This document shows positions 1,116-37,751 of a stretch of 37,892 nt of DNA, piece after piece; within the stretch, counting starts at the first letter, position 1, and every line of letters starts with the position of its first letter. The position numbers and the translations under genes are program-made. The stretch comes from Escherichia phage T7. The notes beneath the pieces were generated by a model that was not told where the DNA came from, did not search any database, and was given only the letters and a program-made list of their open reading frames with translations. The stretch lies in the sequence record MZ375264.1; one strand, given 5' to 3'.

Positions 1116-1246
1116 TGTCTACTACCAACGTGCAATACGGTCTGACCGCTCAAACTGTACTTTTCTATAGCGACATGGGGCGGCGTGGCATAGACGAAAG
1201 GAAAAGGTTAAAGCCAAGAAACTCGCCGCACTTGAACAGGCACTAG
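1115..1246 (+). pseudogene. 0.4: Chimeric remnant ORF: first 21 codons of gene 0.4 fused across a deletion junction (about 1178-1180) to sequence from the end of the 0.6 region; 43 codons
   Basis: ATG overlaps the 0.3 stop (TAATG) as in T7; [21 protein letters not shown] then unrelated residues; about 563 bp shorter than T7 between 0.3 and 0.7. Confidence 0.7.
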
Positions 1247-1294
1247 CCAACACACTGAACGCTATCTCATAACGAACATAAAGGACACAATGCA

Positions 1295-2374
1295 ATGAAC
1301 ATTACCGACATCATGAACGCTATCGACGCAATCAAAGCACTGCCAATCTGTGAACTTGACAAGCGTCAAGGTATGCTTATCGACTTACTGGTCGAGATGG
1401 TCAACAGCGAGACGTGTGATGGCGAGCTAACCGAACTAAATCAGGCACTTGAGCATCAAGATTGGTGGACTACCTTGAAGTGTCTCACGGCTGACGCAGG
1501 GTTCAAGATGCTCGGTAATGGTCACTTCTCGGCTGCTTATAGTCACCCGCTGCTACCTAACAGAGTGATTAAGGTGGGCTTTAAGAAAGAGGATTCAGGC
1601 GCAGCCTATACCGCATTCTGCCGCATGTATCAGGGTCGTCCTGGTATCCCTAACGTCTACGATGTACAGCGCCACGCTGGATGCTATACGGTGGTACTTG
1701 ACGCACTTAAGGATTGCGAGCGTTTCAACAATGATGCCCATTATAAATACGCTGAGATTGCAAGCGACATCATTGATTGCAATTCGGATGAGCATGATGA
1801 GTTAACTGGATGGGATGGTGAGTTTGTTGAAACTTGTAAACTAATCCGCAAGTTCTTTGAGGGCATCGCCTCATTCGACATGCATAGCGGGAACATCATG
1901 TTCTCAAATGGAGACGTACCATACATCACCGACCCGGTATCATTCTCGCAGAAGAAAGACGGTGGCGCATTCAGCATCGACCCTGAGGAACTCATCAAGG
2001 AAGTCGAGGAAGTCGCACGACAGAAAGAAATTGACCGCGCTAAGGCCCGTAAAGAACGTCACGAGGGGCGCTTAGAGGCACGCAGATTCAAACGTCGCAA
2101 CCGCAAGGCACGTAAAGCACACAAAGCTAAGCGCGAAAGAATGCTTGCTGCGTGGCGATGGGCTGAACGTCAAGAACGGCGTAACCATGAGGTAGCTGTA
2201 GATGTACTAGGAAGAACCAATAACGCTATGCTCTGGGTCAACATGTTCTCTGGGGACTTTAAGGCGCTTGAGGAACGAATCGCGCTGCACTGGCGTAATG
2301 CTGACCGGATGGCTATCGCTAATGGTCTTACGCTCAACATTGATAAGCAACTTGACGCAATGTTAATGGGCTGA
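1295..2374 (+). CDS. 0.7: Gene 0.7 serine/threonine protein kinase and host transcription shut-off protein, 359 aa
   Basis: ORF 1295-2374, length and sequence match T7 gp0.7; basic C-terminal region. Confidence 0.95.
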
Positions 2375-2384
2375 TAGTCTTATC

Positions 2385-2432
2385 TTACAGGTCATCTGCG
2401 GGTGGCCTGAATAGGTACGATTTACTAACTGG
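2385..2432 (+). promoter_or_regulatory. R1: RNase III processing hairpin upstream of gene 1 (R1)
   Basis: Inverted repeat CAGGTCATC ... GGTGGCCTG just upstream of the gene 1 RBS. Confidence 0.45.
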
Positions 2433-2444
2433 AAGAGGCACTAA

Positions 2445-5096
2445 ATGAACACGATTAACATCGCTAAGAACGACTTCTCTGACATCGAACTGGCTGCTAT
2501 CCCGTTCAACACTCTGGCTGACCATTACGGTGAGCGTTTAGCTCGCGAACAGTTGGCCCTTGAGCATGAGTCTTACGAGATGGGTGAAGCACGCTTCCGC
2601 AAGATGTTTGAGCGTCAACTTAAAGCTGGTGAGGTTGCGGATAACGCTGCCGCCAAGCCTCTCATCACTACCCTACTCCCTAAGATGATTGCACGCATCA
2701 ACGACTGGTTTGAGGAAGTGAAAGCTAAGCGCGGCAAGCGCCCGACAGCCTTCCAGTTCCTGCAAGAAATCAAGCCGGAAGCCGTAGCGTACATCACCAT
2801 TAAGACCACTCTGGCTTGCCTAACCAGTGCTGACAATACAACCGTTCAGGCTGCAGCAAGCGCAATCGGTCGGGCCATTGAGGACGAGGCTCGCTTCGGT
2901 CGTATCCGTGACCTTGAAGCTAAGCACTTCAAGAAAAACGTTGAGGAACAACTCAACAAGCGCGTAGGGCACGTCTACAAGAAAGCATTTATGCGAGTTG
3001 TCGAGGCTGACATGCTCTCTAAGGGTCTACTCGGTGGCGAGGCGTGGTCTTCGTGGCATAAGGAAGACTCTATTCATGTAGGAGTACGCTGCATCGAGAT
3101 GCTCATTGAGTCAACCGGAATGGTTAGCTTACACCGCCAAAATGCTGGCGTAGTAGGTCAAGACTCTGAGACTATCGAACTCGCACCTGAATACGCTGAG
3201 GCTATCGCAACCCGTGCAGGTGCGCTGGCTGGCATCTCTCCGATGTTCCAACCTTGCGTAGTTCCTCCTAAGCCGTGGACTGGCATTACTGGTGGTGGCT
3301 ATTGGGCTAACGGTCGTCGTCCTCTGGCGCTGGTGCGTACTCACAGTAAGAAAGCACTGATGCGCTACGAAGACGTTTACATGCCTGAGGTGTACAAAGC
3401 GATTAACATTGCGCAAAACACCGCATGGAAAATCAACAAGAAAGTCCTAGCGGTCGCCAACGTAATCACCAAGTGGAAGCATTGTCCGGTCGAGGACATC
3501 CCTGCGATTGAGCGTGAAGAACTCCCGATGAAACCGGAAGACATCGACATGAATCCTGAGGCTCTCACCGCGTGGAAACGTGCTGCCGCTGCTGTGTACC
3601 GCAAGGACAAGGCTCGCAAGTCTCGCCGTATCAGCCTTGAGTTCATGCTTGAGCAAGCCAATAAGTTTGCTAACCATAAGGCCATCTGGTTCCCTTACAA
3701 CATGGACTGGCGCGGTCGTGTTTACGCTGTGTCAATGTTCAACCCGCAAGGTAACGATATGACCAAAGGACTGCTTACGCTGGCGAAAGGTAAACCAATC
3801 GGTAAGGAAGGTTACTACTGGCTGAAAATCCACGGTGCAAACTGTGCGGGTGTCGATAAGGTTCCGTTCCCTGAGCGCATCAAGTTCATTGAGGAAAACC
3901 ACGAGAACATCATGGCTTGCGCTAAGTCTCCACTGGAGAACACTTGGTGGGCTGAGCAAGATTCTCCGTTCTGCTTCCTTGCGTTCTGCTTTGAGTACGC
4001 TGGGGTACAGCACCACGGCCTGAGCTATAACTGCTCCCTTCCGCTGGCGTTTGACGGGTCTTGCTCTGGCATCCAGCACTTCTCCGCGATGCTCCGAGAT
4101 GAGGTAGGTGGTCGCGCGGTTAACTTGCTTCCTAGTGAAACCGTTCAGGACATCTACGGGATTGTTGCTAAGAAAGTCAACGAGATTCTACAAGCAGACG
4201 CAATCAATGGGACCGATAACGAAGTAGTTACCGTGACCGATGAGAACACTGGTGAAATCTCTGAGAAAGTCAAGCTGGGCACTAAGGCACTGGCTGGTCA
4301 ATGGCTGGCTTACGGTGTTACTCGCAGTGTGACTAAGCGTTCAGTCATGACGCTGGCTTACGGGTCCAAAGAGTTCGGCTTCCGTCAACAAGTGCTGGAA
4401 GATACCATTCAGCCAGCTATTGATTCCGGCAAGGGTCTGATGTTCACTCAGCCGAATCAGGCTGCTGGATACATGGCTAAGCTGATTTGGGAATCTGTGA
4501 GCGTGACGGTGGTAGCTGCGGTTGAAGCAATGAACTGGCTTAAGTCTGCTGCTAAGCTGCTGGCTGCTGAGGTCAAAGATAAGAAGACTGGAGAGATTCT
4601 TCGCAAGCGTTGCGCTGTGCATTGGGTAACTCCTGATGGTTTCCCTGTGTGGCAGGAATACAAGAAGCCTATTCAGACGCGCTTGAACCTGATGTTCCTC
4701 GGTCAGTTCCGCTTACAGCCTACCATTAACACCAACAAAGATAGCGAGATTGATGCACACAAACAGGAGTCTGGTATCGCTCCTAACTTTGTACACAGCC
4801 AAGACGGTAGCCACCTTCGTAAGACTGTAGTGTGGGCACACGAGAAGTACGGAATCGAATCTTTTGCACTGATTCACGACTCCTTCGGTACCATTCCGGC
4901 TGACGCTGCGAACCTGTTCAAAGCAGTGCGCGAAACTATGGTTGACACATATGAGTCTTGTGATGTACTGGCTGATTTCTACGACCAGTTCGCTGACCAG
5001 TTGCACGAGTCTCAATTGGACAAAATGCCAGCACTTCCGGCTAAAGGTAACTTGAACCTCCGTGACATCTTAGAGTCGGACTTCGCGTTCGCGTAA
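2445..5096 (+). CDS. 1: Gene 1 T7 RNA polymerase, 883 aa
   Basis: ORF 2445-5096; catalytic D537 (AFDGSCSG) and H811/D812 (IHDSFG), Y639 (LAYGSKEF), specificity loop with R746, N748, R756, Q758 all present; ends FAFA. Confidence 0.98.
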   Translation: MNTINIAKNDFSDIELAAIPFNTLADHYGERLAREQLALEHESYEMGEARFRKMFERQLKAGEVADNAAAKPLITTLLPKMIARINDWFEEVKAKRGKRPTAFQFLQEIKPEAVAYITIKTTLACLTSADNTTVQAAASAIGRAIEDEARFGRIRDLEAKHFKKNVEEQLNKRVGHVYKKAFMRVVEADMLSKGLLGGEAWSSWHKEDSIHVGVRCIEMLIESTGMVSLHRQNAGVVGQDSETIELAPEYAEAIATRAGALAGISPMFQPCVVPPKPWTGITGGGYWANGRRPLALVRTHSKKALMRYEDVYMPEVYKAINIAQNTAWKINKKVLAVANVITKWKHCPVEDIPAIEREELPMKPEDIDMNPEALTAWKRAAAAVYRKDKARKSRRISLEFMLEQANKFANHKAIWFPYNMDWRGRVYAVSMFNPQGNDMTKGLLTLAKGKPIGKEGYYWLKIHGANCAGVDKVPFPERIKFIEENHENIMACAKSPLENTWWAEQDSPFCFLAFCFEYAGVQHHGLSYNCSLPLAFDGSCSGIQHFSAMLRDEVGGRAVNLLPSETVQDIYGIVAKKVNEILQADAINGTDNEVVTVTDENTGEISEKVKLGTKALAGQWLAYGVTRSVTKRSVMTLAYGSKEFGFRQQVLEDTIQPAIDSGKGLMFTQPNQAAGYMAKLIWESVSVTVVAAVEAMNWLKSAAKLLAAEVKDKKTGEILRKRCAVHWVTPDGFPVWQEYKKPIQTRLNLMFLGQFRLQPTINTNKDSEIDAHKQESGIAPNFVHSQDGSHLRKTVVWAHEKYGIESFALIHDSFGTIPADAANLFKAVRETMVDTYESCDVLADFYDQFADQLHESQLDKMPALPAKGNLNLRDILESDFAFA

Positions 5097-5104
5097 CGCC
5101 AAAT

Positions 5105-5127
5105 CAATACGACTCACTATAGAGGGA
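5105..5127 (+). promoter_or_regulatory. phi1.1A: T7 promoter phi1.1A (CAATACGACTCACTATAGAGGGA), +1 at 5122
   Basis: Promoter-like 23-mer; position matches T7 phi1.1A. Confidence 0.9.
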
Positions 5128-5132
5128 CAAAC

Positions 5133-5178
5133 TCAAGGTCATTCGCAAGAGTGGCCTTTATGATTGACCTTCTTCCGG
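5133..5178 (+). promoter_or_regulatory. R1.1: RNase III processing hairpin R1.1
   Basis: Inverted repeat AAGGTCA ... TGACCTT between phi1.1A and phi1.1B. Confidence 0.5.
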
Positions 5179-5179
5179 T

Positions 5180-5202
5180 TAATACGACTCACTATAGGAG
5201 AA
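5180..5202 (+). promoter_or_regulatory. phi1.1B: T7 promoter phi1.1B (TAATACGACTCACTATAGGAGAA), +1 at 5197
   Basis: Promoter-like 23-mer; position matches T7 phi1.1B. Confidence 0.9.
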
Positions 5203-5280
5203 CCTTAAGGTTTAACTTTAAGACCCTTAAGTGTTAATTAGAGATTTAAATTAAAGAATTACTAAGAGAGGACTTTAAGT

Positions 5281-5409
5281 ATGCGTAACTTCGAAAAGAT
5301 GACCAAACGTTCTAACCGTAATGCTCGTGACTTCGAGGCAACCAAAGGTCGCAAGTTGAATAAGACTAAGCGTGACCGCTCTCACAAGCGTAGCTGGGAG
5401 GGTCAGTAA
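5281..5409 (+). CDS. 1.1: Gene 1.1, small basic protein, 42 aa
   Basis: ATG 5281 with an upstream GAGAGG RBS, stop TAA 5407-5409; position matches T7 gene 1.1. Confidence 0.75.
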   Translation: MRNFEKMTKRSNRNARDFEATKGRKLNKTKRDRSHKRSWEGQ

Positions 5410-5410
5410 G

Positions 5411-5668
5411 ATGGGACGTTTATATAGTGGTAATCTGGCAGCATTCAAGGCAGCAACAAACAAGCTGTTCCAGTTAGACTTAGCGGTCATTTATGATGAC
5501 TGGTATGATGCCTATACAAGAAAAGATTGCATACGGTTACGTATTGAGGACAGGAGTGGAAACCTGATTGATACTAGCACCTTCTACCACCACGACGAGG
5601 ACGTTCTGTTCAATATGTGTACTGATTGGTTGAACCATATGTATGACCAGTTGAAGGACTGGAAGTAA
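5411..5668 (+). CDS. 1.2: Gene 1.2, inhibitor of host dGTPase, 85 aa
   Basis: ATG 5411 (MGRLYSGNLAAF...) within ORF-track entry 5372-5668; matches T7 gp1.2. Confidence 0.85.
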   Translation: MGRLYSGNLAAFKAATNKLFQLDLAVIYDDWYDAYTRKDCIRLRIEDRSGNLIDTSTFYHHDEDVLFNMCTDWLNHMYDQLKDWK

Positions 5669-5688
5669 TACGACTCAGTATAGGGACA
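5666..5688 (+). promoter_or_regulatory. phi1.3: T7 promoter phi1.3 (TAATACGACTCAGTATAGGGACA), +1 at 5683
   Basis: Promoter 23-mer with G at -5 as in T7 phi1.3; overlaps the gene 1.2 stop. Confidence 0.9.
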
Positions 5689-5694
5689 ATGCTT

Positions 5695-5742
5695 AAGGTC
5701 GCTCTCTAGGAGTGGCCTTAGTCATTTAACCAATAGGAGATA
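5695..5742 (+). promoter_or_regulatory. R1.3: RNase III processing hairpin R1.3
   Basis: Inverted repeat AAGGTCGC ... GTGGCCTT upstream of the gene 1.3 RBS. Confidence 0.45.
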
Positions 5743-5748
5743 AACATT

Positions 5749-6828
5749 ATGATGAACATTAAGACTAACCCGTTTAAAGCCGTGTCTTTCGTAGAGTCTG
5801 CCATTAAGAAGGCTCTGGATAACGCTGGGTATCTTATCGCTGAAATCAAGTACGATGGTGTACGCGGGAACATCTGCGTAGACAATACTGCTAACAGTTA
5901 CTGGCTCTCTCGTGTATCTAAAACGATTCCGGCACTGGAGCACTTAAACGGGTTTGATGTTCGCTGGAAGCGTCTACTGAACGATGACCGTTGCTTCTAC
6001 AAAGATGGCTTTATGCTTGATGGGGAACTCATGGTCAAGGGCGTAGACTTTAACACAGGGTCCGGCCTACTGCGTACCAAATGGACTGACACGAAGAACC
6101 AAGAGTTCCATGAAGAGTTATTCGTTGAACCAATCCGTAAGAAAGATAAAGTTCCCTTTAAGCTGCACACTGGACACCTTCACATAAAACTGTACGCTAT
6201 CCTCCCGCTGCACATCGTGGAGTCTGGAGAAGACTGTGATGTCATGACGTTGCTCATGCAGGAACACGTTAAGAACATGCTGCCTCTGCTACAGGAATAC
6301 TTCCCTGAAATCGAATGGCAAGCGGCTGAATCTTACGAGGTCTACGATATGGTAGAACTACAGCAACTGTACGAGCAGAAGCGAGCAGAAGGCCATGAGG
6401 GTCTCATTGTGAAAGACCCGATGTGTATCTATAAGCGCGGTAAGAAATCTGGCTGGTGGAAAATGAAACCTGAGAACGAAGCTGACGGTATCATTCAGGG
6501 TCTGGTATGGGGTACAAAAGGTCTGGCTAATGAAGGTAAAGTGATTGGTTTTGAGGTGCTTCTTGAGAGTGGTCGTTTAGTTAACGCCACGAATATCTCT
6601 CGCGCCTTAATGGATGAGTTCACTGAGACAGTAAAAGAGGCCACCCTAAGTCAATGGGGATTCTTTAGCCCATACGGTATTGGCGACAACGATGCTTGTA
6701 CTATTAACCCTTACGATGGCTGGGCGTGTCAAATTAGCTACATGGAGGAAACACCTGATGGCTCTTTGCGGCACCCATCGTTCGTAATGTTCCGTGGCAC
6801 CGAGGACAACCCTCAAGAGAAAATGTAA
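5749..6828 (+). CDS. 1.3: Gene 1.3 ATP-dependent DNA ligase, 359 aa
   Basis: ORF 5749-6828; adenylation motif KYDGVR (AEIKYDGVRG) near the N-terminus. Confidence 0.97.
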   Translation: MMNIKTNPFKAVSFVESAIKKALDNAGYLIAEIKYDGVRGNICVDNTANSYWLSRVSKTIPALEHLNGFDVRWKRLLNDDRCFYKDGFMLDGELMVKGVDFNTGSGLLRTKWTDTKNQEFHEELFVEPIRKKDKVPFKLHTGHLHIKLYAILPLHIVESGEDCDVMTLLMQEHVKNMLPLLQEYFPEIEWQAAESYEVYDMVELQQLYEQKRAEGHEGLIVKDPMCIYKRGKKSGWWKMKPENEADGIIQGLVWGTKGLANEGKVIGFEVLLESGRLVNATNISRALMDEFTETVKEATLSQWGFFSPYGIGDNDACTINPYDGWACQISYMEETPDGSLRHPSFVMFRGTEDNPQEKM

Positions 6829-6835
6829 TCACACT

Positions 6836-6863
6836 GGCTCACCTTCGGGTGGGCCTTTCTGCG
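6836..6863 (+). terminator. TE: Early terminator TE for E. coli RNA polymerase (GC hairpin GGCTCACC-TTCG-GGTGGGCC followed by TTTCT)
   Basis: Stem-loop plus T-tract immediately after gene 1.3. Confidence 0.85.
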
Positions 6864-6878
6864 TTTATAAGGAGACAC

Positions 6879-6901
6879 TTTTACGACTCACTAAAGGAGG
6901 T
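6879..6901 (+). promoter_or_regulatory. phi1.5: T7 promoter phi1.5 with altered upstream edge (TTTTACGACTCACTAAAGGAGG), +1 at 6896
   Basis: Core CGACTCACTAAAGGAGG intact, but positions -16 and -15 read TT instead of the consensus AA because the sequence joins directly to the gene 1.3/TE downstream region. Confidence 0.75.
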
Positions 6902-6908
6902 ACACACC

Positions 6909-6998
6909 ATGATGTACTTAATGCCATTACTCATCGTCATTGTAGGATGCCTTGCGCTCCACTGTAGCGATGATGATATGCCAGATGGTCACGCTTAA
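6909..6998 (+). CDS. 1.5: Gene 1.5, small hydrophobic protein, 29 aa
   Basis: ATG 6909 (MMYLMPLLIVIVGCLALHCSDDDMPDGHA), stop TAA overlapping the phi1.6 promoter. Confidence 0.7.
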   Translation: MMYLMPLLIVIVGCLALHCSDDDMPDGHA

Positions 6999-7018
6999 TA
7001 CGACTCACTAAAGGAGAC
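6996..7018 (+). promoter_or_regulatory. phi1.6: T7 promoter phi1.6 (TAATACGACTCACTAAAGGAGAC), +1 at 7013
   Basis: Promoter 23-mer; position matches T7 phi1.6. Confidence 0.9.
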
Positions 7019-7023
7019 ACTAT

Positions 7024-7284
7024 ATGTTTCGACTTCATTACAACAAAAGCGTTAAGAATTTCACGGTTCGCCGTGCTGACCGTTCAATCGTATGTGCGAG
7101 CGAGCGCCGAGCTAAGATACCTCTTATTGGTAACACAGTTCCTTTGGCACCGAGCGTCCACATCATTATCACCCGTGGTGACTTTGAGAAAGCAATAGAC
7201 AAGAAACGTCCGGTTCTTAGTGTGGCAGTGACCCGCTTCCCGTTCGTCCGTCTGTTACTCAAACGAATCAAGGAGGTGTTCTGA
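7024..7284 (+). CDS. 1.6: Gene 1.6, 86 aa, function unknown
   Basis: ORF 7024-7284, matches T7 gp1.6 length. Confidence 0.85.
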
Positions 7285-7866
7285 TGGGACTGTTAGATGG
7301 TGAAGCCTGGGAAAAAGAAAACCCGCCAGTACAAGCAACTGGGTGTATAGCTTGCTTAGAGAAAGATGACCGTTATCCACACACCTGTAACAAAGGAGCT
7401 AACGATATGACCGAACGTGAACAAGAGATGATCATTAAGTTGATAGACAATAATGAAGGTCGCCCAGATGATTTGAATGGCTGCGGTATTCTCTGCTCCA
7501 ATGTCCCTTGCCACCTCTGCCCCGCAAATAACGATCAAAAGATAACCTTAGGTGAAATCCGAGCGATGGACCCACGTAAACCACATCTGAATAAACCTGA
7601 GGTAACTCCTACAGATGACCAGCCTTCCGCTGAGACAATCGAAGGTGTCACTAAGCCTTCCCACTACATGCTGTTTGACGACATTGAGGCTATCGAAGTG
7701 ATTGCTCGTTCAATGACCGTTGAGCAGTTCAAGGGATACTGCTTCGGTAACATCTTAAAGTACAGACTACGTGCTGGTAAGAAGTCAGAGTTAGCGTACT
7801 TAGAGAAAGACCTAGCGAAAGCAGACTTCTATAAAGAACTCTTTGAGAAACATAAGGATAAATGTT

Positions 7867-7874
<8 letters not shown>
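7284..7874 (+). CDS. 1.7: Gene 1.7, 196 aa (nucleotide kinase in T7)
   Basis: ORF 7284-7874, start overlapping the 1.6 stop (TGATG). Confidence 0.9.
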
Positions 7875-8207
<333 letters not shown>

Positions 8208-8210
<3 letters not shown>

Positions 8211-8230
8211 TACGACTCACTATTAGGGAA
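8208..8230 (+). promoter_or_regulatory. phi2.5: T7 promoter phi2.5 (TAATACGACTCACTATTAGGGAA), A-initiating, +1 at 8225
   Basis: Matches the known A-start class II promoter phi2.5; overlaps the gene 2 stop. Confidence 0.9.
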
Positions 8231-8275
8231 GACTCCCTCTGAGAAACCAAACGAAACCTAAAGGAGATTAACATT

Positions 8276-8974
8276 ATGGCTAAGAAGATTTTCACCTCTG
8301 CGCTGGGTACCGCTGAACCTTACGCTTACATCGCCAAGCCGGACTACGGCAACGAAGAGCGTGGCTTTGGGAACCCTCGTGGTGTCTATAAAGTTGACCT
8401 GACTATTCCCAACAAAGACCCGCGCTGCCAGCGTATGGTCGATGAAATCGTGAAGTGTCACGAAGAGGCTTATGCTGCTGCCGTTGAGGAATACGAAGCT
8501 AATCCACCTGCTGTAGCTCGTGGTAAGAAACCGCTGAAACCGTATGAGGGTGACATGCCGTTCTTCGATAACGGTGACGGTACGACTACCTTTAAGTTCA
8601 AATGCTACGCGTCTTTCCAAGACAAGAAGACCAAAGAGACCAAGCACATCAATCTGGTTGTGGTTGACTCAAAAGGTAAGAAGATGGAAGACGTTCCGAT
8701 TATCGGTGGTGGCTCTAAGCTGAAAGTTAAATATTCTCTGGTTCCATACAAGTGGAACACTGCTGTAGGTGCGAGCGTTAAGCTGCAACTGGAATCCGTG
8801 ATGCTGGTCGAACTGGCTACCTTTGGTGGCGGTGAAGACGATTGGGCTGACGAAGTTGAAGAGAACGGCTATGTTGCCTCTGGTTCTGCCAAAGCGAGCA
8901 AACCACGCGACGAAGAAAGCTGGGACGAAGACGACGAAGAGTCCGAGGAAGCAGACGAAGACGGAGACTTCTAA
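8276..8974 (+). CDS. 2.5: Gene 2.5 single-stranded DNA-binding protein, 232 aa
   Basis: ORF 8276-8974; acidic C-terminal tail ending EEADEDGDF. Confidence 0.97.
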   Translation: MAKKIFTSALGTAEPYAYIAKPDYGNEERGFGNPRGVYKVDLTIPNKDPRCQRMVDEIVKCHEEAYAAAVEEYEANPPAVARGKKPLKPYEGDMPFFDNGDGTTTFKFKCYASFQDKKTKETKHINLVVVDSKGKKMEDVPIIGGGSKLKVKYSLVPYKWNTAVGASVKLQLESVMLVELATFGGGEDDWADEVEENGYVASGSAKASKPRDEESWDEDDEESEEADEDGDF

Positions 8975-9394
8975 GTGGAACTGCGGGAGAAAATCCTTGA
9001 GCGAATCAAGGTGACTTCCTCTGGGTGTTGGGAGTGGCAGGGCGCTACGAACAATAAAGGGTACGGGCAGGTGTGGTGCAGCAATACCGGAAAGGTTGTC
9101 TACTGTCATCGCGTAATGTCTAATGCTCCGAAAGGTTCTACCGTCCTGCACTCCTGTGATAATCCATTATGTTGTAACCCTGAACACCGTTCCATAGGAA
9201 CTCCAAAAGAGAACTCCACTGACATGGTAAATAAGGGTCGCTCACACAAGGGGTATAAACTTTCAGACGAAGACGTAATGGCAATCATGGAGTCCAGCGA
9301 GTCCAATGTATCCTTAGCTCGCACCTATGGTGTCTCCCAACAGACTATTTGTGATATACGCAAAGGGAGGCGACATGGCAGGTTACGGCGCTAA
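8975..9394 (+). CDS. 2.8: Gene 2.8, HNH endonuclease-like protein, 139 aa, GTG start
   Basis: ORF 8975-9394; motif HSCDNPLCCNPEHRSIGTPKENSTDMVNKGR shared with gene 7.7. Confidence 0.85.
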   Translation: MELREKILERIKVTSSGCWEWQGATNNKGYGQVWCSNTGKVVYCHRVMSNAPKGSTVLHSCDNPLCCNPEHRSIGTPKENSTDMVNKGRSHKGYKLSDEDVMAIMESSESNVSLARTYGVSQQTICDIRKGRRHGRLRR

Positions 9395-9824
9395 AGGAAT
9401 CCGAAAGGTTGGAGCGTTTCGCTCTGGCCTAGAGGACAAGGTTTCAAAGCAGTTGGAATCAAAAGGTATTAAATTCGAGTATGAAGAGTGGAAAGTGCCT
9501 TATGTAATTCCGGCGAGCAATCACACTTACACTCCAGACTTCTTACTTCCAAACGGTATATTCGTTGAGACAAAGGGTCTGTGGGAAAGCGATGATAGAA
9601 AGAAGCACTTATTAATTAGGGAGCAGCACCCCGAGCTAGACATCCGTATTGTCTTCTCAAGCTCACGTACTAAGTTATACAAAGGTTCTCCAACGTCTTA
9701 TGGAGAGTTCTGCGAAAAGCATGGTATTAAGTTCGCTGATAAACTGATACCTGCTGAGTGGATAAAGGAACCCAAGAAGGAGGTCCCCTTTGATAGATTA
9801 AAAAGGAAAGGAGGAAAGAAATAA
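9375..9824 (+). CDS. 3: Gene 3 endonuclease I (Holliday junction resolvase), 149 aa
   Basis: ATG 9375 (MAGYGAKGIRKVGAF...) inside ORF-track entry 9327-9824, overlapping the 2.8 3' end. Confidence 0.95.
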   Translation: MAGYGAKGIRKVGAFRSGLEDKVSKQLESKGIKFEYEEWKVPYVIPASNHTYTPDFLLPNGIFVETKGLWESDDRKKHLLIREQHPELDIRIVFSSSRTKLYKGSPTSYGEFCEKHGIKFADKLIPAEWIKEPKKEVPFDRLKRKGGKK

Positions 9825-10279
9825 TGGCTCGTGTACAGTTTAAACAACGTGAATCTACTGACGCAATCTTTGTTCACTGCTCGGCTACCAAGCCAAGTCA
9901 GAATGTTGGTGTCCGTGAGATTCGCCAGTGGCACAAAGAGCAGGGTTGGCTCGATGTGGGATACCACTTTATCATCAAGCGAGACGGTACTGTGGAGGCA
10001 GGACGAGATGAGATGGCTGTAGGCTCTCACGCTAAGGGTTACAACCACAACTCTATCGGCGTCTGCCTTGTTGGTGGTATCGACGATAAAGGTAAGTTCG
10101 ACGCTAACTTTACGCCAGCCCAAATGCAATCCCTTCGCTCACTGCTTGTCACACTGCTGGCTAAGTACGAAGGCGCTGTGCTTCGCGCCCATCATGAGGT
10201 GGCGCCGAAGGCTTGCCCTTCGTTCGACCTTAAGCGTTGGTGGGAGAAGAACGAACTGGTCACTTCTGACCGTGGATAA
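9824..10279 (+). CDS. 3.5: Gene 3.5 T7 lysozyme (N-acetylmuramoyl-L-alanine amidase, inhibitor of T7 RNAP), 151 aa
   Basis: ORF 9824-10279, MARVQFKQRESTDAIFVHCSATKPSQN..., start overlaps the gene 3 stop (TAATG). Confidence 0.98.
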   Translation: MARVQFKQRESTDAIFVHCSATKPSQNVGVREIRQWHKEQGWLDVGYHFIIKRDGTVEAGRDEMAVGSHAKGYNHNSIGVCLVGGIDDKGKFDANFTPAQMQSLRSLLVTLLAKYEGAVLRAHHEVAPKACPSFDLKRWWEKNELVTSDRG

Positions 10280-10280
10280 T

Positions 10281-10303
10281 TAATTGAACTCACTAAAGGG
10301 AGA
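10281..10303 (+). promoter_or_regulatory. phi3.8: T7 promoter phi3.8 (TAATTGAACTCACTAAAGGGAGA), +1 at 10298
   Basis: Promoter-like 23-mer; position matches T7 phi3.8. Confidence 0.9.
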
Positions 10304-10342
10304 CCACAGCGGTTTCCCTTTGTTCGCATTGGAGGTCAAATA

Positions 10343-12441
<2,099 letters not shown>

Positions 12442-12444
<3 letters not shown>

Positions 12445-12464
12445 TACGACTCACTAAAGGAGAC
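12442..12464 (+). promoter_or_regulatory. phi4.3: T7 promoter phi4.3 (TAATACGACTCACTAAAGGAGAC), +1 at 12459
   Basis: Promoter 23-mer; in T7 the gene 4.3 ATG follows directly, here it is missing. Confidence 0.9.
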
Positions 12465-12503
12465 ACACCAAATTCTTTGAGTAATCAAACAGGAGAAACC
12501 ATT

Positions 12504-12773
12504 ATGTCTAACGTAGCTGAAACTATCCGTCTATCCGATACAGCTGACCAGTGGAACCGTCGAGTCCACATCAACGTTCGCAACGGTAAGGCGACTATGG
12601 TTTACCGCTGGAAGGACTCTAAGTCCTCTAAGAATCACACTCAGCGTATGACGTTGACAGATGAGCAAGCACTGCGTCTGGTCAATGCGCTTACCAAAGC
12701 TGCCGTGACAGCAATTCATGAAGCTGGTCGCGTCAATGAAGCTATGGCTATCCTCGACAAGATTGATAACTAA
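12504..12773 (+). CDS. 4.5: Gene 4.5, 89 aa
   Basis: ATG 12504 (MSNVAETIRLSDTADQWNRRVHINV...) with RBS AGGAG; inside ORF-track entry 12477-12773. Confidence 0.85.
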   Translation: MSNVAETIRLSDTADQWNRRVHINVRNGKATMVYRWKDSKSSKNHTQRMTLTDEQALRLVNALTKAAVTAIHEAGRVNEAMAILDKIDN

Positions 12774-12784
12774 GAGTGGTATCC

Positions 12785-12815
12785 TCAAGGTCGCCAAAGT
12801 GGTGGCCTTCATGAA
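12785..12815 (+). promoter_or_regulatory. R4.7: RNase III processing hairpin R4.7
   Basis: Inverted repeat AAGGTCGCC ... GGTGGCCTT, similar to R1.3. Confidence 0.45.
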
Positions 12816-12817
12816 TA

Positions 12818-12840
12818 CTATTCGACTCACTATAGGAGAT
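12818..12840 (+). promoter_or_regulatory. phi4.7: T7 promoter phi4.7 (CTATTCGACTCACTATAGGAGAT), +1 at 12835
   Basis: Promoter-like 23-mer; here it is followed directly by the gene 5 RBS instead of gene 4.7. Confidence 0.85.
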
Positions 12841-12864
12841 ATTACCTCAATAGGAGAAATCAAT

Positions 12865-14979
12865 ATGATCGTTTCTGACATCGAAGCTAACGCCCTCTTA
12901 GAGAGCGTCACTAAGTTCCACTGCGGGGTTATCTACGACTACTCCACCGCTGAGTACGTAAGCTACCGTCCGAGTGACTTCGGTGCGTATCTGGATGCGC
13001 TGGAAGCCGAGGTTGCACGAGGCGGTCTTATTGTGTTCCACAACGGTCACAAGTATGACGTTCCTGCATTGACCAAACTGGCAAAGTTGCAATTGAACCG
13101 AGAGTTCCACCTTCCTCGTGAGAACTGTATTGACACCCTTGTGTTGTCACGTTTGATTCATTTCAACCTCAAGGACACCGATATGGGTCTTCTGCGTTCC
13201 GGCAAGTTGCCCGGAAAACGCTTTGGGTCTCACGCTTTGGAGGCGTGGGGTTATCGCTTAGGCGAGATGAAGGGTGAATACAAAGACGACTTTAAGCGTA
13301 TGCTTGAAGAGCAGGGTGAAGAATACGTTGACGGAATGGAGTGGTGGAACTTCAACGAAGAGATGATGGACTATAACGTTCAGGACGTTGTGGTAACTAA
13401 AGCTCTCCTTGAGAAGCTACTCTCTGACAAACATTACTTCCCTCCTGAGATTGACTTTACGGACGTAGGATACACTACGTTCTGGTCAGAATCCCTTGAG
13501 GCCGTTGACATTGAACATCGTGCTGCATGGCTGCTCGCTAAACAAGAGCGCAACGGGTTCCCGTTTGACACAAAAGCAATCGAAGAGTTGTACGTAGAGT
13601 TAGCTGCTCGCCGCTCTGAGTTGCTCCGTAAATTGACCGAAACGTTCGGCTCGTGGTATCAGCCTAAAGGTGGCACTGAGATGTTCTGCCATCCGCGAAC
13701 AGGTAAGCCACTACCTAAATACCCTCGCATTAAGACACCTAAAGTTGGTGGTATCTTTAAGAAGCCTAAGAACAAGGCACAGCGAGAAGGCCGTGAGCCT
13801 TGCGAACTTGATACCCGCGAGTACGTTGCTGGTGCTCCTTACACCCCAGTTGAACATGTTGTGTTTAACCCTTCGTCTCGTGACCACATTCAGAAGAAAC
13901 TCCAAGAGGCTGGGTGGGTCCCGACCAAGTACACCGATAAGGGTGCTCCTGTGGTGGACGATGAGGTACTCGAAGGAGTACGTGTAGATGACCCTGAGAA
14001 GCAAGCCGCTATCGACCTCATTAAAGAGTACTTGATGATTCAGAAGCGAATCGGACAGTCTGCTGAGGGAGACAAAGCATGGCTTCGTTATGTTGCTGAG
14101 GATGGTAAGATTCATGGTTCTGTTAACCCTAATGGAGCAGTTACGGGTCGTGCGACCCATGCGTTCCCAAACCTTGCGCAAATTCCGGGTGTACGTTCTC
14201 CTTATGGAGAGCAGTGTCGCGCTGCTTTTGGCGCTGAGCACCATTTGGATGGGATAACTGGTAAGCCTTGGGTTCAGGCTGGCATCGACGCATCCGGTCT
14301 TGAGCTACGCTGCTTGGCTCACTTCATGGCTCGCTTTGATAACGGCGAGTACGCTCACGAGATTCTTAACGGCGACATCCACACTAAGAACCAGATAGCT
14401 GCTGAACTACCTACCCGAGATAACGCTAAGACGTTCATCTATGGGTTCCTCTATGGTGCTGGTGATGAGAAGATTGGACAGATTGTTGGTGCTGGTAAAG
14501 AGCGCGGTAAGGAACTCAAGAAGAAATTCCTTGAGAACACCCCCGCGATTGCAGCACTCCGCGAGTCTATCCAACAGACACTTGTCGAGTCCTCTCAATG
14601 GGTAGCTGGTGAGCAACAAGTCAAGTGGAAACGCCGCTGGATTAAAGGTCTGGATGGTCGTAAGGTACACGTTCGTAGTCCTCACGCTGCCTTGAATACC
14701 CTACTGCAATCTGCTGGTGCTCTCATCTGCAAACTGTGGATTATCAAGACCGAAGAGATGCTCGTAGAGAAAGGCTTGAAGCATGGCTGGGATGGGGACT
14801 TTGCGTACATGGCATGGGTACATGATGAAATCCAAGTAGGCTGCCGTACCGAAGAGATTGCTCAGGTGGTCATTGAGACCGCACAAGAAGCGATGCGCTG
14901 GGTTGGAGACCACTGGAACTTCCGGTGTCTTCTGGATACCGAAGGTAAGATGGGTCCTAATTGGGCGATTTGCCACTGA
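12865..14979 (+). CDS. 5: Gene 5 DNA polymerase, 704 aa
   Basis: ATG 12865 ([15 protein letters not shown]..., exonuclease D5/E7) inside ORF-track entry 12718-14979; family A polymerase. Confidence 0.98.
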
Positions 14980-15024
14980 TACAGGAGGCTACTCCAAAGG
15001 CATAAAACTATAGGAGAAATTATT

Positions 15025-15691: not shown

Positions 15692-16580
15692 CCTTAAACA
15701 ATTCTATGAGTTACGTGAAGGCTGCGACGACAAGGGTATCCTTGTGATGGACGGCGACTGGCTGGTCTTCCAAGCTATGAGTGCTGCTGAGTTTGATGCC
15801 TCTTGGGAGGAAGAGATTTGGCACCGATGCTGTGACCACGCTAAGGCCCGTCAGATTCTTGAGGATTCCATTAAGTCCTACGAGACCCGTAAGAAGGCTT
15901 GGGCAGGTGCTCCAATTGTCCTTGCGTTCACCGATAGTGTTAACTGGCGTAAAGAACTGGTTGACCCGAACTATAAGGCTAACCGTAAGGCCGTGAAGAA
16001 ACCTGTAGGGTACTTTGAGTTCCTTGATGCTCTCTTTGAGCGCGAAGAGTTCTATTGCATCCGTGAGCCTATGCTTGAGGGTGATGACGTTATGGGAGTT
16101 ATTGCTTCCAATCCGTCTGCCTTCGGTGCTCGTAAGGCTGTAATCATCTCTTGCGATAAGGACTTTAAGACCATCCCTAACTGTGACTTCCTGTGGTGTA
16201 CCACTGGTAACATCCTGACTCAGACCGAAGAGTCCGCTGACTGGTGGCACCTCTTCCAGACCATCAAGGGTGACATCACTGATGGTTACTCAGGGATTGC
16301 TGGATGGGGTGATACCGCCGAGGACTTCTTGAATAACCCGTTCATAACCGAGCCTAAAACGTCTGTGCTTAAGTCCGGTAAGAACAAAGGCCAAGAGGTT
16401 ACTAAATGGGTTAAACGCGACCCTGAGCCTCATGAGACGCTTTGGGACTGCATTAAGTCCATTGGCGCGAAGGCTGGTATGACCGAAGAGGATATTATCA
16501 AGCAGGGCCAAATGGCTCGAATCCTACGGTTCAACGAGTACAACTTTATTGACAAGGAGATTTACCTGTGGAGACCGTAG
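15678..16580 (+). CDS. 6: Gene 6 5'-3' exonuclease, 300 aa
   Basis: ORF 15678-16580. Confidence 0.97.
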   Translation: MALLDLKQFYELREGCDDKGILVMDGDWLVFQAMSAAEFDASWEEEIWHRCCDHAKARQILEDSIKSYETRKKAWAGAPIVLAFTDSVNWRKELVDPNYKANRKAVKKPVGYFEFLDALFEREEFYCIREPMLEGDDVMGVIASNPSAFGARKAVIISCDKDFKTIPNCDFLWCTTGNILTQTEESADWWHLFQTIKGDITDGYSGIAGWGDTAEDFLNNPFITEPKTSVLKSGKNKGQEVTKWVKRDPEPHETLWDCIKSIGAKAGMTEEDIIKQGQMARILRFNEYNFIDKEIYLWRP

Positions 16581-16681
16581 CGTATATTGGTCTGGGTCTT
16601 TGTGTTCTCGGAGTGTGCCTCATTTCGTGGGGCCTTTGGGACTTAGCCAGAATAATCAAGTCGTTACACGACACTAAGTGA
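16568..16681 (+). CDS. 6.3: Gene 6.3, 37 aa, GTG start
   Basis: GTG 16568 to TGA 16681, hydrophobic peptide; position matches T7 gene 6.3. Confidence 0.5.
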   Translation: METVAYIGLGLCVLGVCLISWGLWDLARIIKSLHDTK

Positions 16682-16701
16682 TAAACTCAAGGTCCCTAAA
16701 T

Positions 16702-16724
16702 TAATACGACTCACTATAGGGAGA
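16702..16724 (+). promoter_or_regulatory. phi6.5: T7 class III promoter phi6.5, exact consensus TAATACGACTCACTATAGGGAGA, +1 at 16719
   Basis: Exact 23-bp consensus. Confidence 0.97.
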
Positions 16725-16778
16725 TAGGGGCCTTTACGATTATTACTTTAAGATTTAACTCTAAGAGGAATCTTTATT

Positions 16779-17033
16779 ATGTTAACACCTATTAACCAAT
16801 TACTTAAGAACCCTAACGATATTCCAGATGTACCTCGTGCAACCGCTGAGTATCTACAGGTTCGATTCAACTATGCGTACCTCGAAGCGTCTGGTCATAT
16901 AGGACTTATGCGTGCTAATGGTTGTAGTGAGGCCCACATCTTGGGTTTCATTCAGGGCCTACAGTATGCCTCTAACGTCATTGACGAGATTGAGTTACGC
17001 AAGGAACAACTAAGAGATGATGGGGAGGATTGA
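16779..17033 (+). CDS. 6.5: Gene 6.5, 84 aa
   Basis: ORF 16779-17033. Confidence 0.9.
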
Positions 17034-37562: not shown

Positions 37563-37610
37563 ATGTTCCGCTTATTGTTGAACCTACTGCGGCATAGAGT
37601 CAAGTCCTAA
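37563..37610 (+). pseudogene. 19.5: Gene 19.5 remnant: first 13 codons (MFRLLLNLLRHRV) then junction and stop; 15 codons instead of 49
   Basis: ATG 37563 with RBS GGGAGGAG; sequence after CATAGAGTCA joins directly to AGTCCTAAGG of the right-end region; about 200 bp shorter than T7 here. Confidence 0.7.
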
Positions 37611-37751
37611 GGTATACCCATAAAGAGCCTCTAAGGTCTATACCTAAAGATAGGCCATCCTATCAGTGTCACCTAAAGAGGGTCTTAGAGAGGGCCTATG
37701 GAGTTCCTATAGGGTCCTTTAAAATATACCCCATAAAAATCTGAGTGACTA

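What the first reader, a model, noticed from the sequence alone, without database searches (positions are those of the whole stretch)
6866..6905. Gene 1.4 is cleanly absent and the excision removes the TAA that forms -17 to -15 of promoter phi1.5
Between terminator TE and gene 1.5 the window is 156 bp shorter than T7, which is exactly the length of the gene 1.4 ORF. The RBS-like AAGGAGACACTTT now runs straight into TACGACTCACTAAAGGAGG. The phi1.5 promoter therefore has TT at -16/-15 instead of AA, which should weaken recognition of its AT-rich upstream element and reduce expression of genes 1.5 and 1.6.
Basis: partly seen in the sequence, partly recalled or inferred. Interest (0 to 1): 0.45.

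Follow-up and report, generated by a model that had tools for sequence, protein, structure and literature searches.

The report
Engineered gene 1.4 deletion in T7
The window is a laboratory-made, genome-reduced phage T7 in which the small non-essential gene 1.4 was cut out exactly from start codon to stop codon, and because that stop codon is also the first three bases of the next promoter, the promoter lost two conserved bases; this is a published construct, and the promoter change is probably mild.

Summary
Against reference T7 (NC_001604), the window lacks exactly T7 7608-7763, the 156-bp gene 1.4 ORF from ATG through TAA. The junction is at window 6881|6882 and has no microhomology. The gene is nowhere else in the window. 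The gene 1.4 stop codon is positions -17 to -15 of promoter phi1.5, so the promoter now reads TTTTACGACTCACTAAAGGAGGT: -17 T is kept by coincidence, and -16 and -15 change from A to T.

The window is a complete T7 genome from the CRISPR/Cas9 iterative genome-reduction experiment (CiPGr) of Yuan et al., NAR 2022. The same junction is in dozens of GenBank "Mutant Escherichia phage T7 clone T7_30L ... T7_260L" records. It first appears at transfer 30. The window also carries a second ORF-exact deletion (gene 4.7) and two deletions that start at an ATG (genes 4.3 and 5.3).

The predicted weakening of phi1.5 is plausible but modest. The element stays entirely A/T. Published single A-to-T changes at -16 or -15 keep about 68% activity in vitro. 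The site still scores far above background. Genes 1.5 and 1.6 are also served by read-through from phi1.1A, phi1.1B and phi1.3, and gene 1.6 by its own intact phi1.6.

Verdict: real, engineered, already known, low interest.

The parts
5749..6828 (+). Gene 1.3 (DNA ligase), intact, upstream of the finding
   Evidence: ORF list. 100% identical to T7 6475-7554.
6836..6868 (+). E. coli RNA polymerase terminator TE, intact: hairpin GGCUCACC-UUCG-GGUGGGCC at 6836-6855, followed by UUUCUGCGUUUAU
   Evidence: RNA fold. Annotated in NC_001604 at 7588, which equals window 6862. Identical to T7.
6869..6881 (+). Orphaned ribosome-binding site and spacer of the deleted gene 1.4 (AAGGAGACACTTT). No start codon follows it. 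Its last three bases (TTT, 6879-6881) now occupy promoter positions -17..-15.
   Evidence: Sequence and alignment.
6881..6882 (+). Deletion junction. T7 7607 is joined to T7 7764; 156 bp (gene 1.4, ATG through TAA) are missing; zero microhomology.
   Evidence: The same junction is in GenBank MZ375237 onward and OL9647xx.
6879..6901 (+). Clipped T7 RNA polymerase promoter phi1.5 (-17..+6, +1 = G6896): TTTTACGACTCACTAAAGGAGGT. -16 and -15 are A>T; the other 21 positions are unchanged.
   Evidence: PWM score is 25.05 bits, against 33.33 for wild-type phi1.5, 25.9 for natural phi4.7 and 7.6 for the best non-promoter site in the window.
6909..6998 (+). Gene 1.5 (29 aa), intact. Its TAA stop (6996-6998) is -17..-15 of phi1.6.
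6996..7018 (+). Promoter phi1.6, intact (TAATACGACTCACTAAAGGAGAC, +1 = 7013)
7024..7284 (+). Gene 1.6, intact
12846..12847 (+). Second ORF-exact designed deletion in the same genome: gene 4.7 (T7 13927-14334, 408 bp, ATG through TAA, zero microhomology). Context that shows the design pattern.
14994..14995 (+). Deletion of gene 5.3 starting at its ATG (T7 16483-16820, 338 bp, zero microhomology; ends 19 nt before the stop). Context.
12468..12470 (+). Deletion of gene 4.3 (198 bp; 3-bp placement ambiguity that includes a start at the ATG, T7 13352). Context.

Best explanation
The window is a complete genome of a laboratory genome-reduced phage T7. It comes from the CiPGr experiment, which combined Cas9 cleavage of a target gene, lambda-Red repair from a plasmid-borne 2 x 50-bp homology template, and serial transfer. 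The 'cassette-gene' template for gene 1.4 was designed to remove the entire ORF, so repair joined T7 7607 directly to T7 7764.

In T7 the TAA stop of gene 1.4 doubles as bases -17..-15 of the class II promoter phi1.5. The scarless ORF deletion therefore clipped the promoter as a side effect. The last three bases of the gene 1.4 leader (TTT) now fill -17..-15, giving TTTTA in place of TAATA.

What is shown: the deletion, its exact ends, its lack of microhomology, its presence in the deposited CiPGr clones from transfer 30 onward, and the sequence change in the promoter.

What is inferred:
- The clipped promoter still works but is weaker, on the order of 2-fold. The AT-rich element, read through the minor groove by the polymerase's AT-rich recognition loop, stays all-A/T, and the specificity-determining -12..-5 and initiation regions are untouched.
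- The effect on gp1.5 and gp1.6 levels and on phage growth is small. Read-through from phi1.1A, phi1.1B and phi1.3 and the intact phi1.6 still serve these genes.
For: 1. Exact ORF excision with 0 bp microhomology. Gene 4.7 is removed in the same ATG-to-TAA manner, and genes 5.3 and 4.3 are removed from their ATGs.
2. The deletions in this genome that do not follow ORF boundaries all sit at direct repeats: 12 bp for 0.4-0.6, 9 bp for 19.5, and the CCTAAAG repeats at the left end. This is the expected signature of spontaneous deletions and contrasts with the gene 1.4 junction.
3. The identical junction occurs in 29 listed records named 'Mutant Escherichia phage T7 clone T7_<transfer><L/S>' or 'T7_5t1' in an every-other-rank sample. 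Three further listed records carry variants of it: two T7-B derivatives with one extra base change and T7_260L.
4. Yuan et al. [quoted passage not shown] They describe picking large (L) and small (S) plaques every 10 transfers, sequencing 60 T7 mutants, and clones named T7_300L and T7_100_t2.
5. gp1.4 is still encoded in the transfer-10 and transfer-20 clones MZ375233, 235 and 236 and is gone in T7_30L and T7_30S and later clones.
6. The window shares most of its variants with T7_190S.
7. Promoter evidence: PWM 25.05 bits against a background maximum of 7.6. Komura 2018 single-mutant activities are about 68%.
8. The lineage stays viable through at least transfer 260. In T7_260L the clipped promoter, fused to the phi1.6 initiation region, is the only proximal promoter in front of gene 1.6.
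Against: - The homology-template sequences (supplementary tables of the paper) and the accession list (Table S10) are not held by the tools. The link between the GenBank records and the paper rests on clone naming and experimental design, not on a printed accession (one search found none).
- No listed record has the window's length of 37,892 bp, so the exact clone was not identified.
- Deletions 5.3 and 4.3 stop 19 and about 15 nt short of their stop codons. I cannot explain this without the design table.
- The size of the promoter effect is extrapolated from single substitutions in a consensus class III promoter measured in vitro with one barcode each. The -16T/-15T double mutant in the phi1.5 context was not measured.
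- -15 A is invariant in all 17 T7 promoters, which could mean a larger in-vivo penalty than the in-vitro data suggest.
Confidence: 0.92

Rival explanations
1. Spontaneous deletion in a T7 stock, by replication slippage or illegitimate recombination, that happens to remove gene 1.4.
For: T7 readily loses non-essential DNA. This same genome carries several spontaneous deletions. Gene 1.4 is dispensable and poorly conserved: gp1.4 homologues are found in only 46 phage records, nearly all T7 itself.
Against: Spontaneous T7 deletions form between short direct repeats, as the 0.4-0.6, 19.5 and left-end deletions here do with 9-12 bp or heptamer repeats. The gene 1.4 junction has 0 bp of homology, and both ends fall on the first and last base of the ORF. 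A second deletion (gene 4.7) has the same geometry. All listed records with the junction are labelled engineered mutants.
Confidence: 0.04
2. A natural T7 relative that never had gene 1.4, with the TE-phi1.5 arrangement being ancestral.
For: Many Teseptimavirus genomes match the ligase-to-1.7 region (233 records), but only 46 encode a detectable gp1.4.
Against: The flanks are 100% identical to T7 itself over 1.2 kb, and the whole genome is about 99.9% identical. Natural relatives match only one half of the 60-bp junction query (H133-H140). The record names say 'Mutant ... clone'.
Confidence: 0.02
3. Assembly or sequencing artefact: gene 1.4 is present in the phage but was dropped from the assembly.
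For: None specific.
Against: No repeat flanks the junction that could collapse. The junction recurs in dozens of separately sequenced clones across 270 transfers and in later derivatives. The paper reports PCR verification of designed deletions, using gp4.7 and gp5.3 as examples.
Confidence: 0.01

Closest known systems
CiPGr genome-reduced T7 clones (GenBank MZ375237-MZ375293, OL964739 and following; Yuan, Shi, Jiang & Ma, Nucleic Acids Res 2022, PMC9825161)
   Same: Base-for-base the same gene 1.4 junction. The window shares the 4.3, 4.7, 5.3, 0.4-0.6 and 19.5 junctions and many point mutations with T7_190S.
   Different: The window has private changes not seen in T7_80S or T7_190S: a 144-bp left-end deletion, phi17 -11 G>A, gene 3.8 S56*, and an A3 -35 mutation. 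Its length of 37,892 bp matches no listed record.
Wild-type T7 class II promoter phi1.5 (+1 at T7 7778)
   Same: 21 of 23 positions are identical, including -14..+6. Same start site, same downstream gene 1.5 and same RBS.
   Different: -16 and -15 are T instead of A. The sequence upstream of -17 is now the gene 1.4 leader and TE instead of the 3' end of gene 1.4. The PWM score is 8.3 bits lower.
Natural T7 promoter phi4.7 (CTATTCGACTCACTATAGGAGAT)
   Same: A functional T7 promoter that also departs from TAATA in the AT-rich element, including T at -16. Its PWM score is similar (25.9 against 25.05).
   Different: phi4.7 keeps A at -15. Its departures are at -17, -16 and -13.
Classical spontaneous T7 deletion mutants (repeat-mediated; Studier and colleagues, from my own knowledge)
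   Same: Loss of non-essential early or class II DNA with retained viability. Examples of this type are present elsewhere in the window.
   Different: Those deletions end in short direct repeats and ignore ORF boundaries. The gene 1.4 deletion has no repeat and follows the ORF exactly.
Refactored T7.1 (Chan, Kosuri & Endy 2005; DQ100054)
   Same: An engineered T7 in which the overlap between gene ends and regulatory elements is the central design issue.
   Different: T7.1 keeps gene 1.4 (H224). By design (my knowledge of the paper, not tested here), it separates overlapping elements rather than deleting through them.

Membership tests
CiPGr 'cassette-gene' engineered deletion (Cas9 + 2x50-bp HR template) | Deletion boundaries coincide with the boundaries of the targeted gene | tested here: met
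   The deleted interval is T7 7608-7763, exactly the annotated gene 1.4 CDS.
CiPGr 'cassette-gene' engineered deletion (Cas9 + 2x50-bp HR template) | Scarless junction with no microhomology (templated repair rather than slippage) | tested here: met
   0 bp overlap at the junction. The non-designed deletions in the same genome have 9-12 bp.
CiPGr 'cassette-gene' engineered deletion (Cas9 + 2x50-bp HR template) | Same junction present in the deposited clones of that experiment, with an appearance consistent with serial transfer | tested here: met
   One-piece 100% matches in MZ375237 (T7_30L) onward and OL964739 (T7_5t1). Gene 1.4 is still present in the transfer-10 and transfer-20 clones MZ375233, 235 and 236.
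CiPGr 'cassette-gene' engineered deletion (Cas9 + 2x50-bp HR template) | Junction equals the synthesized HR template for gp1.4 | not testable with these tools
   The supplementary tables of PMC9825161 are not held.
T7 RNA polymerase promoter (23-bp, -17..+6) | Match to the conserved core (-12..-5 specificity region, -4..-1 melting region, +1 G) | tested here: met
   -14..+6 are identical to wild-type phi1.5. The PWM score is 25.05 bits, against a best non-promoter site of 7.6 bits.
T7 RNA polymerase promoter (23-bp, -17..+6) | AT-rich upstream element TAATA at -17..-13 | tested here: inconclusive
   The element reads TTTTA. It is still 5/5 A/T, but -16 and -15 depart from bases conserved in 16/17 and 17/17 T7 promoters. 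Published single A>T variants keep about 68% activity.
T7 RNA polymerase promoter (23-bp, -17..+6) | Initiates transcription at +1 with T7 RNA polymerase | not testable with these tools
   Needs run-off transcription or 5'-end mapping.
Spontaneous repeat-mediated T7 deletion | Short direct repeat at both endpoints, one copy retained | tested here: not met
   No shared base at either side of the junction.

The most novel reading that the evidence does not exclude
Seven of the 17 T7 promoters (phi1.3, 1.5, 1.6, 2.5, 4.3, 9, 17) use the upstream gene's TAA stop as their -17..-15. 'Delete the whole ORF' genome minimisation therefore clips promoters systematically. Here the clipped phi1.5 could be measurably weaker in vivo and could contribute to the fitness changes reported for the reduced phages. 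Later events at this site, namely the -14 T>A in T7-B and the phi1.5/phi1.6 fusion in T7_260L, would then reflect relaxed or altered selection on class II transcription.
Probability: 0.15. Interest if true: 0.25.

Novelty: already known. Interest (0 to 1): 0.1.

Why it matters
It matters little for biology. The feature is a designed deletion in a published, GenBank-deposited, genome-reduced T7 lineage.

Its practical value is as a caution for phage genome engineering. T7 packs stop codons into promoter upstream elements at 7 of its 17 promoters. An ORF-exact deletion there is not regulatorily neutral, even when the designers intended to avoid regulatory elements.

For a genome scan, the main point is that this window is an engineered construct. 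Its oddities should not be read as natural variation.

Tried and rejected
- A full-text search for accession MZ375233 found no paper. The first paper search failed on a term shorter than 3 characters.
- The supplementary tables of Yuan et al. 2022 are not held. I could check neither the HR template for gp1.4 nor the accession list.
- I looked for the exact -16T/-15T double mutant (TTTTACGACTCAC...) in the Komura 2018 supplementary data. It is absent from the stored, truncated files. Only the single mutants and a -17A/-16T double were available.
- A 2026 preprint reports all 1- and 2-bp T7 promoter mutants, but its supplements are not held.
- A sigma-70 promoter and intrinsic-terminator consensus scan of 6700-7100 found nothing. 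The junction therefore creates no E. coli-type promoter. TE is missed by the simple rule because its U-tract is interrupted. The fold shows the hairpin is intact.
- I looked for the window's own record by length and by left-end, first-half and second-half searches. No listed record is 37,892 bp or carries the 144-bp left-end deletion.
- I tried to find one rule that explains why the 5.3 and 4.3 deletions stop 19 and about 15 nt before the stop codon while 1.4 and 4.7 include it. Keeping a fixed distance upstream of the next gene does not fit, since 27, 18, 30 and about 34 bp are retained. This is unresolved.
- I considered the mechanical ORF 6849-6998 (GTG start inside the TE stem, in frame with gene 1.5 now that the gene 1.4 stop is gone) as a possible N-terminally extended gp1.5. 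I rejected it as a real gene because it has no RBS and its start lies inside a stable hairpin.

Full report
**What is in the sequence.** Window 6826-7024 reads as follows: the stop of the ligase gene, the TE hairpin, TTTCTGCGTTTAT, AAGGAGACACTTT, TACGACTCACTAAAGGAGGTACACACC, then ATG of gene 1.5. A three-way alignment with reference T7 (NC_001604) shows a single 156-column gap. It starts at the A of the gene 1.4 ATG (T7 7608) and ends at the last A of its TAA (T7 7763). Everything else in the aligned stretch is identical. A whole-genome block comparison gives the same result: window 1178-6881 equals T7 1904-7607, and window 6882-12470 equals T7 7764-13352. The junction (window 6881|6882) cannot be slid in either direction, so it has no microhomology. 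blastn and tblastn of gene 1.4 against the window return only chance matches of 12 nt or less, so the gene has not been relocated.

**Promoter numbering.** NC_001604 places phi1.5 +1 at 7778. Position -17 is therefore 7761, and the gene 1.4 stop codon (7761-7763) is exactly -17..-15.

**What the window is.** It starts and ends with the T7 terminal repeat and is 2,045 bp shorter than T7. All of that difference is accounted for:
- Gene 1.4: 156 bp.
- Gene 4.7: 408 bp, again exactly ATG through TAA, with no microhomology.
- Gene 5.3: 338 bp, starting at the ATG, with no microhomology.
- Gene 4.3: 198 bp, with a 3-bp placement ambiguity that includes the ATG.
- Genes 0.4-0.6: 563 bp, across a 12-bp imperfect repeat.
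- Gene 19.5: 189 bp, across a 9-bp repeat.
- Left end: 144 bp in the CCTAAAG repeat array.
- Both terminal-repeat copies: 18 bp and 1 bp each.
- Right end: 13 bp lost and 2 bp inserted.

There are therefore two classes of deletion. One is ORF-anchored and lacks any repeat. The other ignores ORF boundaries and sits on repeats.

**Origin.** Searching the GenBank phage collection with the region finds wild-type T7 records in two pieces. A long run of records matches in one piece: MZ375237 onward, plus OL9647xx. These are described as 'Mutant Escherichia phage T7 clone T7_30S', 'T7_30L', 'T7_80S', 'T7_190S', 'T7_260L' and 'T7_5t1'.

A 60-bp junction probe matches 29 listed records at 100% in one piece, in an every-other-rank sample of the ranking. 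Three more listed records carry variants of the junction: PV223880 and PV223882 with one mismatch, and MZ375283 with a match covering 80% of the probe.

The naming and design match Yuan et al. 2022 (PMC9825161):
- They used Cas9 plus a plasmid-borne template with 2 x 50-bp arms.
- They picked large (L) and small (S) plaques every 10 transfers for 300 transfers and sequenced 60 T7 mutants.
- They name clones such as T7_300L and T7_100_t2.
- They report non-designed large deletions at gp0.3-0.6, gp4.3-4.7 and gp19.5.

gp1.4 is still encoded in the transfer-10 and transfer-20 clones MZ375233, 235 and 236. It is gone from transfer 30 onward. Of 30 variants in the window, most are shared with T7_190S, so the window is a sibling in that lineage with a few private changes.

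The link to the paper is therefore a strong inference rather than a look-up.

**Why the promoter was clipped.** The authors state that they did not target likely regulatory elements. However, T7 overlaps coding and regulatory signals. For 7 of its 17 promoters (phi1.3, 1.5, 1.6, 2.5, 4.3, 9, 17), the TAA stop of the upstream gene is -17..-15 of the promoter. Any start-to-stop ORF deletion of genes 1.2, 1.4, 1.5, 2, 4.2, 8 or 16 removes those three bases. In this window only phi1.5 is affected. The other 16 promoters keep their upstream element.

**Likely consequence (inference).** Among the 17 T7 promoters, -16 is A in 16 and -15 is A in 17, so the change touches conserved bases. A PWM built from the 17 promoters drops from 33.3 to 25.05 bits. 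That is level with the natural promoter phi4.7 (25.9 bits, which itself has T at -16) and far above the best non-promoter site in the window (7.6 bits).

From my own knowledge of the T7 RNAP-promoter structure (Cheetham, Jeruzalmi & Steitz 1999) and of Imburgio et al. 2000, -17..-13 is read through the minor groove by the AT-rich recognition loop. There, A:T and T:A are hard to tell apart.

The Komura et al. 2018 in-vitro data agree:

| Variant (consensus promoter) | Activity | Relative to wild type |
|---|---|---|
| Wild type | 169 +/- 19 | 100% |
| -15 A>T | 115.7 | about 68% |
| -16 A>T | 114.5 | about 68% |
| -17A/-16T | 83.7 | about 50% |
| AGG at -17..-15 | 1.5 | about 1% |
| -2 T>A (the natural phi1.5 and phi1.6 variant) | 161 and 138 | about 82-95% |

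 If the two single effects multiply, the junction promoter would keep roughly 45% of phi1.5 activity. The exact double mutant was not in the stored file, so this is an estimate.

Gene 1.6 keeps its own promoter 117 bp downstream. By established T7 biology (my knowledge), class II transcripts from phi1.1A, phi1.1B and phi1.3 pass TE and cover genes 1.5 and 1.6.

The lineage carries the junction from transfer 30 through at least transfer 260 without repair. Two later derivatives show further change at the site:
- The T7-B clones (PV223880, PV223882) have -14 T>A, a position invariant in all 17 natural promoters.
- T7_260L has recombined the identical cores of phi1.5 and phi1.6. This deleted gene 1.5 and left one hybrid promoter, with the clipped upstream part, in front of gene 1.6.

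Both events suggest weak selection on phi1.5.

**Other local effects.**
- TE is intact: hairpin at 6836-6855 and its U-tract.
- The junction creates no sigma-70-like promoter.
- The gene 1.4 RBS (6869-6874) is now followed by no start codon.
- Removing the gene 1.4 stop leaves the upstream frame open into gene 1.5, which gives the mechanical ORF 6849-6998. Its only start is a GTG inside the TE stem with no RBS, so I do not regard it as real.

**Rivals.**
- A spontaneous deletion is unlikely. The junction has no repeat and ORF-exact ends, and a second deletion has the same geometry.
- A natural gene-1.4-less relative is excluded by the identity to T7: 100% in the flanks and about 99.9% genome-wide. 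Natural relatives match only half of the junction probe.
- An assembly artefact is excluded by recurrence in dozens of separately sequenced clones.

**Verdict.** The origin is engineered and already published. Interest is low.

Noticed in passing
window 21078 (T7 22904): The +1 base of the strong class III capsid promoter phi10 is mutated G>T (TAATACGACTCACTATA-T-GGAGA). The change is shared with clone T7_190S but not with T7_80S. It would be expected to shift or weaken initiation at the main capsid promoter.
   Followed up: partly
window 32729 (T7 34555): Promoter phi17 carries G>A at -11, a specificity-determining position. It reads TAATACAACTCACTATAGGGAGA, the same core as natural phiOL. 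The change is private to this window among the clones compared.
   Followed up: partly
window 242 (T7 405): phiOL +1 is A>G, which brings its initiation region to the consensus GGGAGA. Shared with T7_80S and T7_190S.
   Followed up: partly
window 554 (T7 717): A>G inside the -35 hexamer of E. coli early promoter A3 (TTGACA>TTGGCA). Absent from T7_80S and T7_190S.
   Followed up: no
window 2854 and 2995 (gene 1): T7 RNA polymerase carries V137A and Q184R in its N-terminal domain. Q184R is shared with T7_80S and T7_190S; V137A is shared with T7_190S only. Whether either relates to the promoter mutations was not examined.
   Followed up: no
window 10509 (T7 11391): Nonsense mutation S56* in gene 3.8 (HNH endonuclease). 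The gene is inactivated by a point mutation rather than a deletion. Private to this window among the clones compared.
   Followed up: no
window 1178-1189; 37594-37602; 168|169; 97|98 and its copy in the right terminal repeat; right end near 37620: Non-designed deletions at direct repeats. They are: 563 bp across genes 0.4-0.6 (12-bp imperfect repeat, with three junction 'SNPs' that are really the other repeat copy); 189 bp across gene 19.5 (9-bp ATAGAGTCA); 144 bp within the left-end CCTAAAG repeat array; an 18-bp loss present in both terminal-repeat copies; and a 13-bp loss plus a 2-bp CC insertion near the right end.
   Followed up: partly
reference T7 (L003): phi1.3, 1.5, 1.6, 2.5, 4.3, 9, 17: For 7 of the 17 T7 promoters, the TAA stop codon of the upstream gene is exactly promoter positions -17..-15. 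ORF-exact deletion of genes 1.2, 1.4, 1.5, 2, 4.2, 8 or 16 would clip a promoter in the same way.
   Followed up: yes
L010 (MZ375283, clone T7_260L) 375-475; L004/L011 (PV223882/PV223880, T7-B clones): In T7_260L, a 117-bp recombination between the identical cores of phi1.5 and phi1.6 removed gene 1.5. It left one hybrid promoter, with the clipped TTTT upstream part, before gene 1.6. In the T7-B derivatives the clipped promoter has a further -14 T>A change.
   Followed up: partly
window 12468-12470 and 14994|14995: The deletions of genes 4.3 and 5.3 begin at the start codon but end about 15 and 19 nt before the stop codon. The gene 1.4 and 4.7 deletions, by contrast, include the stop. No single spacing rule explains this.
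   Followed up: partly
window 6849-6998: With the gene 1.4 stop codon gone, the reading frame upstream of gene 1.5 is open back to a GTG inside the TE hairpin, giving a mechanical 49-aa ORF. There is no RBS, so it is probably not expressed.
   Followed up: partly
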